Assembly: GCA_964016885.1 (NCBI GenBank)
Contig: OZ024743.1
Coordinates: 156,488,001 to 156,552,000 of the forward strand
Source of the DNA: Eledone cirrhosa
Lineage: Eukaryota
DNA length: 64,000 nucleotides
Reading direction: 5' to 3'
In this document: positions 2,662 to 24,759 of the stretch, piece by piece
Layout of the letters: every line of letters begins with the position of its first letter
Position numbering within the stretch: position 1 is the stretch's first letter
Position numbers and translations under genes: made by a program
Notes under the pieces: generated by a model
The model's input: the letters and a program-made list of their open reading frames with translations, nothing else
Told to the model about the DNA's origin: nothing
The model's database searches: none

Positions 2662-2866
2662 AACGAAGGAAATGTAGTAATGAATCAGATAGACCATAAC
2701 GCACCAAAGTACTCAATACTTAGGGTAGTATAGTGGGTAATAGGAACAAGTAGGACGCCGACGGCTGAGCTCAAGCCGTTTCGACGCCTAAATCTGGACT
2801 CAATTAGCCGTCCAGAATTAGCCGTCGAACGGCTTGAGCTCAGCCGTCGGGGTCCTACTTGTTCCT
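2662..2866 (+). mobile_element. ~200-bp (TA)n-associated fold-back element, copy 1
   Basis: AACGAAGGA...CGCACCAAAGTACTCAATACTTAGGGTAGTA head, then a hairpin with ~59-bp arms (2740-2799 / 2810-2868); flanked by TA repeats. Confidence 0.85.
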
Positions 2867-2920
2867 ATATATATATATATGTGTGTGTGTGTGTGTATGT
2901 GTATATATTTATATTTATTT

Positions 2921-3112
2921 AAGGAAGGAGTTGTGGTAAGGAACCAGATGGACCATAACGCACCAGAGTACTCAATACTTAGGGTAGTAGAATGGGTAAT
3001 AGGAGAAAGTATGACCCCGACTGCAGAGCTCAAGTTGTTTCGACGGCTATTTCAGTCCAGAAATAGCCAACGAAACGGCTTGAGAGTTGCTGTTGGGATC
3101 ATACTTTCTCGT
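2921..3112 (+). mobile_element. Fold-back element, copy 2
   Basis: Same head; arms GGAGAAAGTATGAC.../...GATCATACTTTCTC. Confidence 0.85.
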
Positions 3113-3156
3113 ATATATTTATATATATATATATATTTTGCTTATGTATATATATA

Positions 3157-3347
3157 TAGGAACGAGTAGGACCCCGACGGCTGAGCTCAAGCCGTTTAGA
3201 CGGCTAATTCTGCAGTATTAGCCGTCGAAACGGCTTGAGGGCAGCCGCCGGGGTCCTATTCGCTCCTATTACCCACTCTACTAGCCTAAGTATTGAGTAC
3301 TTTGGTGCGTTATGATCCAGCTGGTTCCTTACCACATTTCCTTCGTT
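3157..3347 (-). mobile_element. Fold-back element, copy 3 (inverted)
   Basis: Reverse complement of the head ends at ...ACCACATTTCCTTCGTT, followed by long (TA)n. Confidence 0.85.
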
Positions 3348-4235
3348 ATATATATATATATATATATATATATATATATATATATATATATATATATATA
3401 TATATATATATATATATATATATATATATATATATATATATATATATATGTGTAGAGGAATATATGTATTCTCAGATTGTTGTAACTAAAGTAAAATGAG
3501 ATACAATAATGACCATATGTGTAATGTAAATATACGTCTACTTAAGATAAGTTGGAGGAAACTGGACGACGCTGTTGACACATAAAACAGGGGATAAACA
3601 GTAGATGATGTGAAGTATTGCAATAAAAACATTCATGATAACAATAATAACAATAAATCCAATGTTAATGGTAACAAGAACGAGAGCAAATTACACCTCA
3701 AGAACAGTATTAAAAATATAGTTATAGAATTAGGTCTAAGAATAACAGAAAACTCGAAAATATCTACAACCATAGTAATAGCAACAAAGAAAATATCAAA
3801 AGTAAAAACTGTATAGCAGTAAAAATGACTATTAACCACACAAGTATATTGATAAAGTGATTAAAAAATAATAATGTTGTACAAATATTAAATTGCAACA
3901 TACTTTAAAATAACTATAGTATGAAGAACAACAATGACATCAGCAACACCGTTAACTCTAACAAAAATATCTTAACATCCAACAATACATGGAAAAAATA
4001 TTCGAATAAAGATATCACTCTTAACAACGGAGAAGAAAACCAATCATAACAACTTCATTATTCATAGCAGGAGCACAAACAAAGCAATTCTATTACTAAA
4101 TCTGAAATATAAATAAATATGAGTAACATATTCAAGAGCTAAAATATCTGTAACAACAATGTCAACAAGAGTCTCAATAACAACTCATTAGACTATAATT
4201 ATGATTTTCTTTTCAAATTTTACCCCTATCAAAAA

Positions 4236-5470
4236 TTACGAGATGGTGTAGATATTACAACATGAATACTGTAACATATTTTCAAAACGAGAACTATATC
4301 GCGTTTGGACCGGGAAAGTACCACCTGGTATAATAAGAGAATGCGACAGATCCCAAATTATTCTTAATCCTATGACCATCGGCTTGTGTCTAAAAGCAGG
4401 ACTCTCACTCAATAGGGTCCAAAACACTGGTTTTCCATAGCTGAAAAGGAAATGCATAACTTCGATGACCAAATGAAAAAGACTTTACACCAACACCATG
4501 GGCAAAATAGACGTTTCTGTAAGAATATCATAGTCCTCAAGCAAGAAGCTGATCGGTTGATACGCATTGCTCTTCTGCATCTCCCTGAGAGTGATATCAC
4601 TCATGGCCACCAACATGTTAAAAACAAAGTCATCTTCGCGCCATGTCTCATTAAAGAAGTAGTTGCGGACACTAATCATTAGACATCATCCTAGGTTTTG
4701 TGTTTAACAGTACATGTTCAGCATTAATATATTCGAGTCCACTGCCCAAATATTGCTCAGAATATGACCAGTTGAATGATTACTCTATACGAAAGCTGGA
4801 ATAGTATGCACTCCAATATTAAACTGGTTAAACAAGTATATTATAATAGAGGCAATGAAGTCATTCAGTTGCCGTGAATAAACTTTTAGAAAACGAGTGA
4901 GAGAGAGAGAGAGAGAGAGAGAGAGAGAGAGAGAGAGAGAGAGAGAGAGAGAGAGAGAGATATGGTGGTAGGGATAGAGGGGTGGAATGAGTGTATCTTT
5001 CCCTCAAGGCACTTTGAGTCTGATCATTCAAATTGTTACATCTTACCAGTTATTATCTTCCAGGTCGGTTTTGAATCGCTCCTCCATTACTATAACAGCA
5101 TCAGTGTACGTCGGAACGGCTTGTTTGCGTATCCATTTACAATGTATGGCAGAAATACCTAAAGCGGTGGTGGGCAACTCTGACTAAAATGCCGACGATA
5201 TAAATCAATGTCCTTGCTCATTGACCTCAATATATAAATCTACGTTCACCTGTGTTGATTTCTTGGATTGTGAATAAGATCTACATACGTTATACCCTTC
5301 TATAATGAAGTTTGCATTCACCGTCTCAAAGAAGGCTACTGCACTTGGTCACAGGATAAATGGTCAAAGTCGATGAATTCCTCACATATCTTCGCAGGTG
5401 TTCATCAATATTTGGAGGTCTAACCCATATTCCAATTAACTTAATATTTAAAACAAATGTATTATACCAG
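4236..5470 (-). pseudogene. Candidate decayed two-exon coding remnant of unknown family (exons ~5470-5047 and ~4795-4236)
   Basis: TTGTTTAG| acceptor, |GTAAGA donor and TTCCAG| acceptor with matching phase 2. ORFs 4485-4679 and 4236-4472 share one frame separated by a single TAA. No TE motif recognised. Confidence 0.35.
4890..4960. repeat. (GA)n microsatellite
   Basis: Seen directly. Confidence 0.95.
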
Positions 5471-22184: not shown

Positions 22185-22380
22185 TCATAGACCAAGAAAG
22201 GCCAAATGAATGCGCTCTGCAGGACCTGTTGCAGAACGTTTTTCAGGTGTATGGGATCGATGGAGAGCATCTCGTTGCCTCGATGTCTCCATTGAAATGC
22301 TCAAGTAATTGTGTTCGGAAAAACAGCATTGAGTCGAAACAATTAAATATGGGTGTCGGACTCGACCAGGGGGCGCGTAC
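22185..22380 (+). mobile_element. RTE-like RT fragment
   Basis: QVYGIDG...SNCVRKNSIESKQLNMGVGLDQG, resembling GVGLRQG. Confidence 0.65.
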
Positions 22381-22439
22381 TGTAACATGTTATGTACATA
22401 ATATTCATGACAAGCATTGACATGCGCAACTGTTATTGA

Positions 22440-22494
22440 AGAAGAAGAAGAAGAAGAAGAAGAAGAAGAAGAAGAAGAAGAAGAAGAAGAAGAA
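22440..22494. repeat. (GAA)n microsatellite
   Basis: Seen directly. Confidence 0.95.
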
Positions 22495-22779
22495 ATCCCC
22501 TAACTAACTGTAATACATCTATTTATTTCATATAAAGTAATATCAAATCCAAAGACTATAAATTTGGGAAACTGATAGGACAAATATTGGGAAATATATT
22601 CAAGTTGTATCCGGACATTGCCCTGCTTAACATGCTGAGGCATATTCAGTACCATATCTAATGTAGTTTTGGTATTGAGAGTTTTGTTATTGTTGTTTTG
22701 ATGCGAATCTTGCTGCTGTTGCTGTTACTACTACTGGACAACTCTAATTGATGTAACCTATACCATCATTGTGAAGACG

Positions 22780-22980
22780 TTTGGCTGGGGTTCGGTCGAG
22801 AATTGGATAGGCAATCGTGAGGTTGTGAGTTTGATCTTCGGACCAAGCCATATGTTATGTCCGTGAGCAAAACACTTTATTTCACGTTGCTCCTTCTTCC
22901 AGGATTTGAGAACACTAAATGGCATTAGTAATTGGAAAGACTAATAGAAACACTGTTTCCTCGGTACAATTTGGCGAGCT
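22780..22980 (+). mobile_element. tRNA-derived CORE-type SINE, family B
   Basis: CAATCGTGAGGTTGTGAGTTTGAT...TGTCCGTGAGCAAAACACTTTATTTCACGTTGCTCC; matches 29970 and 62120. Confidence 0.8.
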
Positions 22981-24567
22981 CCACTCCACTCATTAAGTGA
23001 ATGAGGTCCGGGATCTTGTCGATCGACTTTTAAATACCATGCATTTCAATGATCAAATAATCGGTTTACCTCGATGGAGCCAGCACGCAACTGATGATTA
23101 TACGAAGTTTTGAGAGAGATTTACTTGCTATTTCTATCGGGTGCAGTGCTGACGCTGTAGTTGCTTCAATTATTTGGTATGCATAATTTCATGTTTAGGT
23201 TTGTAGTGTATGATGTTTCTACTTTTTTTTTATCAATAAATGTATTTCTAACGCAGCACATTTTCGAGGCAAATAAGAGCAATTATTTTCCTGCTACCTT
23301 TCTATTTCTATGTTCCATGAAATTGCCTGGATTGAAGTGGTAATTATCATACAGACTTATTTAACATAATTATAGGGCGGGTATTATAGTCGTTCTTATC
23401 TCTTTCAACATGATTCTAAATATAGTGGCAATGACTGTGGTTTTTGGATCTCATTACACACATAAACTTTATATCAATTGCATACCCATGTGGTGCTGCT
23501 CGTATATTTCTGTATTGAACTTGTTTCATTTTATAGATGAAAATGTGTGTGGGATGCATTTGATGATCGAAAGTGTCATATTTATTAATTGGAACTATTT
23601 CGTGAGGAGTATGTGGAAGTTCAAAGCGAAACTGACGTTGACCGCGGTGAATATAATATGTCGTTTGTATAAACATGATTTTTTTATATAAGCCATATTT
23701 AGAAATATTTGTGGCATTTGGCATGTTATTTACAATTTACATTTATATAACATATATGATGGGAGTGTTCTAGACGCATTGTAGCTAATATCTAGTACAT
23801 TTGACGTTTTGGTATGTAGTGTGTTTATGCATATGAATATAAAGGTTGTTCGTATTTGATGTTCTTAGGCATTGCTGGTAAGAAATAATCTGGTTGATTG
23901 ATAATATTTCTAGGTAGTTGCTCTCGTATTTAATTTGTGCATCTAAAGGCGTGGTTAAGTTCATCAGCAGTGATGGCAACTGCGATAAAAAATATTAATT
24001 CCGGTATGCTGCTAGCTAAAGGTTGTTGTAACAATATTGTGTCAGTATTTTCTCAGACTATTCCGTAATTATAAATTATATTTGTTGCATCGTTTATCTG
24101 CTATGGTGTAGTCACCACAAATCCTGACATTAGAAAACCCTTGTGTATATATGTGGGTATCTATGTGAGGGTATATCTATGTATGTTGGTTTGTGTACGT
24201 GTACGTGCGTGCATATCTGGGTCCGTGTGTATATGTTTGTGGCTAAAACCGGATATTTAAACAATCAGAAATATACACTTTGAAATATAAAGTTAAAAAT
24301 AAAAATGTGTTACACATACCTAATATTCCAGAATATCGAAACAATATTTATTAAAACTGAATAAGGAAATGTTGGAGATTATCGGATTAAATGCCTGGTA
24401 GATTTTATGTTGTTTTTCTGTCCTAAATAAATAAAATTAACGTTATGTGAACATTGAAGAAATAATTACCAATTGCAACTCGATGTTAATTATACACTCA
24501 CACACACGCGCACATATATATATATATATATATATATATATATATATATATATATATATATATATAT

Positions 24568-24759
24568 AACGAAGGAGGTGTGGTAAGGAACGAGATTGAC
24601 CAAAACGCACCAGAGTACTTAGGGTAGTAGAGTGGGTGATAGGAAAATGTTTAACCCCCACGGCAGAGTTCAGGCCGTTTCGACGGCTATTTCTGGACTA
24701 GTCCATAAATAGTCGTCGAAACGGCCTGAGCTCTGCCGTCGGGGTTAAACATTTTCCTA
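24568..24759 (+). mobile_element. Fold-back element, copy 5
   Basis: Between (TA)n tracts; arms GGAAAATGTTTAACCCC.../...GGGGTTAAACATTTTCC; loopless centre GGACT|AGTCC. Confidence 0.88.

What the first reader, a model, noticed from the sequence alone, without database searches (positions are those of the whole stretch)
2662..24759. TA-microsatellite-targeted ~200-bp fold-back element whose hairpin arms co-vary between copies
Seen: copies at 2662, 2921, 3157 (-), 6019 (half) and 24568, plus a fragment near 13252. Every full copy sits against (TA)n-type repeats. Each has an ~80-bp unique head and then a ~120-bp near-perfect palindrome with a 0-10 nt loop. The outer arm differs between copies (GGAACAAGTAGG, GGAGAAAGTATG, GGAAAATGTTTAA), yet the partner arm stays complementary. 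The arms contain nested hairpins (GCCGT CGAA ACGGC), so alternative folds exist. There are no terminal inverted repeats, no Pol III boxes and no ORF, so it fits neither MITE nor SINE. Inference: one arm is regenerated from the other during replication (snap-back priming), or the hairpin is under selection. It may be an undescribed non-autonomous partner of Penelope-like elements, and also a dsRNA substrate for ADAR or Dicer.
Basis: partly seen in the sequence, partly recalled or inferred. Interest (0 to 1): 0.75.

Follow-up and report, generated by a model that had tools for sequence, protein, structure and literature searches.

The report
Run-off stubs of a Penelope retrotransposon
These 200-base hairpins in TA repeats match the extreme end of a Penelope-like jumping gene that is intact elsewhere in the genome, and each likely arose when two short DNA copies ran off the start of its RNA and were joined head to head: a known insertion layout, here with an unusually fixed stopping point.

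Summary
The repeats are real and abundant: 49,212 exact matches to a 16-mer of the 'head'. They are not an orphan family. Head and arm are the 3' end of a 3.5-kb Hydra-type Penelope-like element (PLE) with intact copies in this genome. The window's 'half' copy at 6019 is a 2.15-kb truncated parent that reaches the endonuclease. The head is the PLE 'tail', present on one arm only (43 of 44 young pairs). Arms co-vary because both copy one subfamily's RNA; afterwards they mutate separately. Snap-back fails: the tailed arm is the shorter one in 12 of 43 pairs. The head-to-head layout with one tail is published (PMC8557442). Not found in my paper searches: 72 of 86 arms stop 51-62 nt upstream, and template jumps land on two fixed points, an initiator-like motif (13 of 26) and the predicted hammerhead cut (6 of 26). 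This suggests run-off from defined RNA 5' ends; no RNA data were available. The scan noted this PLE reading and the run-off idea before on other DNA of this genome (e1-9511387, e1-10329066).

The parts
2662..2867 (-). Stub: PLE tail (2662-2740) with tailed arm, joined head to head to a tailless arm; PLE sense of the tailed arm is the minus strand
   Evidence: 89% to the intact element over 142 nt; second arm 93% over 60 nt
2921..3112 (-). Stub of another subfamily; arms decayed independently
3157..3347 (+). Stub in opposite orientation; tail at 3268-3347
6019..8164 (-).
   Evidence: 74-81% nucleotide identity to intact L243
6091..6192 (-). Predicted type I hammerhead; the stub arm is its 3' half. 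This copy has a mismatched C3/A8 core
7357..8164 (-). Broken ORF remnant: thumb end, CxCX5C linker, GIY-YIG endonuclease
   Evidence: tblastn, 77-87% identity to residues 451-717 of the intact protein
13252..13279 (+). 28-nt arm fragment of a divergent sister subfamily
   Evidence: 28 of 28 nt identical to L013 and L202
24568..24759 (-). Stub of a further subfamily whose long parent I did not find

Best explanation
Each 200-bp fold-back consists of two short copies of the 3' end of a Hydra-type Penelope-like retrotransposon set head to head in (TA)n, likely written in one insertion event by the element's own enzyme. Shown: identity with the parent's end, one-sided tail, TA target, intact parents, fixed arm length. 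Inferred by analogy to the anole PLE in vitro: the GIY-YIG endonuclease nicks both strands of (TA)n and the RT primes two cDNAs at two TA-bearing sites 80 nt apart on its RNA, so one cDNA carries the tail. Inferred here (about 0.65): most template RNAs begin ~57 nt upstream of the inner priming site, so both cDNAs run off after ~55-60 nt and are end-joined with small trims. That this 5' end is a transcription start at an initiator-like motif is about 0.5. Long copies would come from longer read-through RNAs of tandem arrays. Arms co-vary because both copy the same subfamily's RNA, usually the same molecule; they then decay separately.
For: A 19-mer extending the arm has 257 genomic matches (control 0), many as inverted pairs 32-3620 bp apart. 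L191 is a near-full PLE plus an inverted truncated copy, tail on one end. All 20 loci fetched for a long frame hold a 784-786-codon open frame, with near-identical direct terminal copies. The model from a 116-sequence alignment has pLDDT 93.5; its best PDB match is TERT, E 3.5e-8. Young pairs: one tail in 43 of 44, both in 0; 72 of 86 arms 51-62 nt; 35 distinct centres among 40. About 9,902 arm matches against 2,129 reaching the ribozyme core. Of 26 copies holding only the ORF start, 13 jump onto the -57 point and 6 onto the predicted hammerhead cut. None of those 13 has its second end beyond -60, and 0 of 43 long copies stop at -50 to -62, which argues against a pause site. An older sister subfamily keeps TTAGT at the matching place and its few short arms start there. 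PMC11167929 passages: both strands extended, two internal RT starts bounding the tail.
Against: No RNA evidence. 0 of 43 long copies carry a -57 upstream stub, which a simple promoter at -57 in tandem arrays would predict. The cap-signature test was inconclusive: after 58-nt arms the extra base was C 11 times and G 9 times. No long parent was found for the 24568 subfamily. The ribozyme region of the young copy does not fold better than shuffles (z 0.76), Rfam finds no hammerhead, and Pfam finds nothing on the intact protein. Arm lengths within a pair are not significantly correlated (rho -0.08; 0.29, p 0.11). Both patterns were exact and differ in length, so the short-to-long ratio is rough.
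Confidence: 0.82

Rival explanations
1. Same PLE origin, but the fixed length comes from an RT stall or tethered template boundary inside ribozyme stem II on a long RNA, as in telomerase, not from the RNA's 5' end.
For: The stop lies in stem II. The RT is TERT-like. No long copy has a -57 stub. The cap test is inconclusive.
Against: All 13 jumped cDNAs end again at or before -60 on their second pass, and L333 repeats an identical -60 to +116 unit. A second fixed point coincides with the ribozyme cut, which would be a physical end.
Confidence: 0.2
2. The stubs or short tandem units are a self-propagating non-autonomous family (SINE- or retrozyme-like) mobilised in trans by the PLE.
For: Short arms are about four fifths of young arms. 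Short tandem units exist (L333, L400). No parent was found for one subfamily.
Against: Most young arms are 98-100% identical to the intact parent. Centres are nearly all different (35 of 40). Stubs lack the ribozyme core and the ORF-start region that the anole PLE needs for binding.
Confidence: 0.1
3. One arm is copied from the other by snap-back priming.
For: Perfect centres occur, and a few inserts copy nearby arm sequence.
Against: The tailed strand would have to be the longer; it is shorter by 3 nt or more in 12 of 43. A two-subfamily chimera exists. Long copies have arms of unequal length, hundreds of bases apart.
Confidence: 0.03
4. The hairpin is kept by selection or arm-to-arm conversion after insertion.
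For: A few rare variants are shared by both arms of a copy.
Against: Private against shared differences: 26/0, 27/5, 75/33 (26 of the 33 at three recurrent subfamily sites) and 40/2 (private counts somewhat inflated by short or mirrored rows).
Confidence: 0.03

Closest known systems
Hydra clade of C-terminal-endonuclease PLEs, including Hydra-1_Obim (Craig et al. 2021, PMC8557442; section 11, passages and supplement rows read)
   Same: Single ORF with RT then GIY-YIG; DKT; CxCX5C linker; CxxC and CxH around the catalytic E and N; hammerhead; (TA)n target; inverted truncated copy with a one-sided tail.
   Different: Unit is 3.53-3.55 kb (most Hydra under 3 kb); RWR in place of RWK; tail 80 nt rather than 30-40; hammerhead arms differ from those listed for Hydra-1_Obim, so a different family; a fixed-length stub majority is not mentioned in what I read.
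PAc, Poseidon from Anolis (Frangieh et al. 2024, PMC11167929; passages read)
   Same: Both target strands extended; two internal RT start sites bounding the tail; AT-rich target.
   Different: Different clade. There the RT start is not homologous to the target, whereas here both starts sit on TA. No RNA reads ended at its hammerhead cut, whereas here 6 of 26 jumps land on the predicted cut.
Penelope of Drosophila virilis (Schostak et al. 2008, PMC2377424; passages and Discussion read)
   Same: Promoter and transcription start lie inside the pseudo-LTR, upstream of the tail.
   Different: The start site here is only inferred; no intron was looked for.
Non-LTR retrozymes (Li et al., 10.64898/2026.07.22.740005; abstract and outline only)
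   Same: Short PLE-derived pieces from the pseudo-LTR region.
   Different: Retrozymes are direct tandems with a whole ribozyme; the stubs are inverted pairs with half of one. L400 is retrozyme-like.

Membership tests
Hydra-clade PLE (parent) | RT with C-terminal GIY-YIG in one ORF | tested here: met
   YRDD at 348 and YIG at 606 of 717 aa; fold matches TERT; homologue P0001 has Pfam GIY-YIG; no Pfam hit on the protein itself
Hydra-clade PLE (parent) | DKG modified to DKT | tested here: met
   DKT at 117
Hydra-clade PLE (parent) | RWK motif | tested here: inconclusive
   RWR at the matching place; compared with Hydra-1_Obim by eye only
Hydra-clade PLE (parent) | CxCX5C linker, no CCHH, CxxC and CxH flanking E and N | tested here: met
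   Linker at 572-580, CxxC at 670, CxH at 698; one Cys only inside the GIY-YIG core
Hydra-clade PLE (parent) | Hammerhead in the pseudo-LTR | tested here: met
   92.6% of cells paired, 3 pairs with two-sided change, all from the sister subfamily; variable core position 7; U3-A8 variant described in PMC4209133; cleavage not assayed; Rfam negative
Hydra-clade PLE (parent) | Insertion into (TA)n | tested here: met
   82 and 85 of 88 ends against 16.5% background
Hydra-clade PLE (parent) | Generally under 3 kb | tested here: not met
   3.53-3.55 kb; a tendency in the paper, not a diagnostic
Hydra-clade PLE (parent) | Placement in the Hydra clade on an RT tree | not tested
   Published Hydra proteins were seen only as supplement text and were not put into a tree
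PLE insertion architecture | Inverted 5'-truncated partner and tail at one end | tested here: met
   43 of 44 young pairs; L191-L200
Helitron | Ends shared with a Rep-helicase element | tested here: not met
   0 of 29 other copies carry the head upstream; 0 of 30 3' loci carry the arm
Non-LTR retrozyme | Direct tandem units with a complete hammerhead | tested here: not met
   Stubs are inverted and lack the core's 5' half
MITE | Terminal inverted repeats at both ends | tested here: not met
   The 80-nt tail lies outside the palindrome and belongs to a retroelement

The most novel reading that the evidence does not exclude
PLE reverse transcription is dominated by a dead-end reaction: the enzyme primes twice near the 5' end of its own RNA and runs off it, scattering on the order of 100,000 fixed-size hairpins, while full-length copying needs rare uncut tandem read-through RNA. 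The genome also preserves cDNAs that end on the hammerhead cut, a fossil record that PLE ribozymes cleave in vivo, and one of a retrozyme being born from its PLE.
Probability: 0.55. Interest if true: 0.65.

Novelty: new member of a known kind. Interest (0 to 1): 0.42.

Why it matters
The PLE transposition cycle, the origin of its inverted and tandem structures and the role of its hammerhead are stated open questions (PMC8557442, PMC11167929). A young family with intact copies, thousands of near-unmutated stubs and two sharp template ends gives exact coordinates to test by RACE and in vitro. For annotation, tens of thousands of such stubs would probably be filed as unknown SINEs or MITEs. If transcribed, they would form 55-60-bp RNA duplexes; that remains untested.

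Tried and rejected
Helitron partner: the head abuts a Rep-helicase gene in L032, but this is a one-off junction. GIY-YIG Pfam search of the genome: none of the 30 loci showed the element as its own end; L074 was a weak chance neighbour. Single-sequence fold was useless, pLDDT 32. Sequence searches of PDB gave nothing significant. Rfam gave nothing on the window or the ribozyme. Sequencing runs: no RNA holder listed, so expression, editing and small RNAs are untested. Contigs of runs X1 and X4 show a 17- and 30-fold depth step at the stop point, but they may be the assembly's own sample and the arm is more conserved across subfamilies than the UTR, so I do not count it as support. Cap-derived extra base: inconclusive. 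Search for a long parent of the 24568 subfamily failed. The long-copy regex was faulty and was redone. Empty (TA)n alleles were not looked for. Dfam, Repbase and the Octopus vulgaris library of PMC13282606 (first third of the text read, supplements not seen) could not be searched and may already hold this family. Paper searches for the fixed-stop stubs listed nothing describing them; the library lacks most subscription journals.

Full report
Observation. The four full copies and their TA context are as described. A profile of the element found 24 hits in 40 stretches of 10 kb that I picked at round coordinates, about 60 per Mb, or roughly 180,000 with fragments if extrapolated to the 3.0-Gb genome. 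An exact 16-mer of the head has 49,212 matches, control 0. The genome looks octopus-like; that is my inference and was not checked.

Finding the parent. A first lead, a Helitron adjoining the head in L032, failed. One copy (L054) had longer arms. A 19-mer of that extension matched 257 times, often as inverted pairs 32-3620 bp apart. L191 is a near-complete element with an inverted truncated partner and the head on one end only. A protein search gave many long frames; all 20 loci fetched for this held a 784-786-codon frame, several in tandem arrays of 3.53-3.55 kb. The protein has the Hydra motifs listed in PMC8557442 section 11, folds confidently with 115 homologues and matches TERT best. That paper's supplement lists Hydra-1_Obim from an octopus with a (TA)n target; by eye its protein is similar and its ribozyme arms differ. 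The window's copy at 6019 continues to 8164 as a truncated parent.

Anatomy. Positions count from the inner priming site. In arrays the head, read in element sense, lies between the 3' UTR and the ORF start and is bounded by TA at both ends: it is the PLE tail, 80 nt long. The arm is the 3' half of a type I hammerhead with a U3-A8 core. On 11 natural copies chosen for diversity, 92.6% of cells pair and three stem II pairs change on both sides, all owing to the two sister-subfamily rows.

How the palindrome forms. I took young copies from the first 100 of 9,902 listed matches, leaving out the last 8 clusters. Among 44 pairs under 200 nt apart, 43 have one tail and none has two; 72 of 86 arms are 51-62 nt; the tailed arm is shorter in 12, longer in 10 and within 2 nt in 21. 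Of 40 centres, 12 are blunt, 19 share 1-4 nt and 9 have inserts; 35 are distinct. Snap-back cannot make a tailed arm shorter than its copy. Two cDNAs primed on opposite strands fit, as shown in vitro for the anole PLE. Within-copy identity exceeds between-copy identity only at subfamily level, and later mutations are mostly private to one arm. One clean chimera of two subfamilies was seen among 77 older copies; the other 10 discordant calls were misregistered or decayed rows.

Why the fixed length. About 2,129 young arms reach the ribozyme core against 9,902 arms in all. I examined 70 of 304 tail-ORF junctions (the first 30, then 40 of the next 70, skipping loci already held), dropping one duplicate; four rows belong to one array. 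Of 26 with only 46-842 nt of ORF start, 13 continue at the -57 point and 6 at -16, the base after the predicted GUC cut; 7 do neither. All 13 end again at or before -60. None of 43 long copies ends at -50 to -62. A pause site should stop long copies too; a physical RNA end fits better. The -57 base is the A of TTAGTC, which fits the initiator consensus (recalled, not from a call), and D. virilis Penelope starts transcription within its pseudo-LTR. Against this, a promoter at -57 should leave some full-length copies with a -57 stub, and none was seen; the cap test was inconclusive; and no RNA was available.

Verdict. This is a new Hydra-type family showing the published head-to-head, one-tail layout in its smallest form. 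Identity as PLE stubs is about 0.95; run-off from a defined RNA end about 0.65; a transcription start as that end about 0.5. I reached the PLE reading before consulting the scan's notes and noted the run-off idea, before seeing e1-10329066; those notes are not independent support.

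Noticed in passing
L400 (G000:C2:356029000-356032500): At least seven 299-bp direct repeats, 99.6-100% like the young PLE, each with a complete hammerhead, tail and ORF start: a retrozyme-like array derived from this element.
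   Followed up: partly
window 8590-10739: A second, unrelated PLE inserted head to head, with ~800-bp arms 92-97% alike and a GIY-YIG remnant with a Neptune/Nematis-type cysteine linker.
   Followed up: partly
window 12909-13052 and 31393-31536: Two copies of another repeat end with a hammerhead-like motif.
   Followed up: no
window 47744-48480 and 12189-12296: Older Hydra-like ORF remnants, 29-47% identical to the intact protein.
   Followed up: no
L332, L364, L369, L394: Template jumps carry a short A run and a G before the -57 point, as expected from an oligo-adenylated 3' end joined to a capped 5' end.
   Followed up: partly
L380:764: Both arms and an internal jump all end at -16, the predicted ribozyme cut.
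   Followed up: partly
L053:2538-2756: A stub whose centre holds an untemplated (GT)n run of 19 nt.
   Followed up: no
tail, window 2662-2740: By eye, part of the tail resembles the 3' end of the coral Hydra sequence printed just before Hydra-1_Obim in the PMC8557442 supplement; earlier scan notes report a shared tail hairpin.
   Followed up: no
L032:4350-8300 and L101-L160: An abundant Helitron family, copies about 95% alike; unrelated to the finding.
   Followed up: partly
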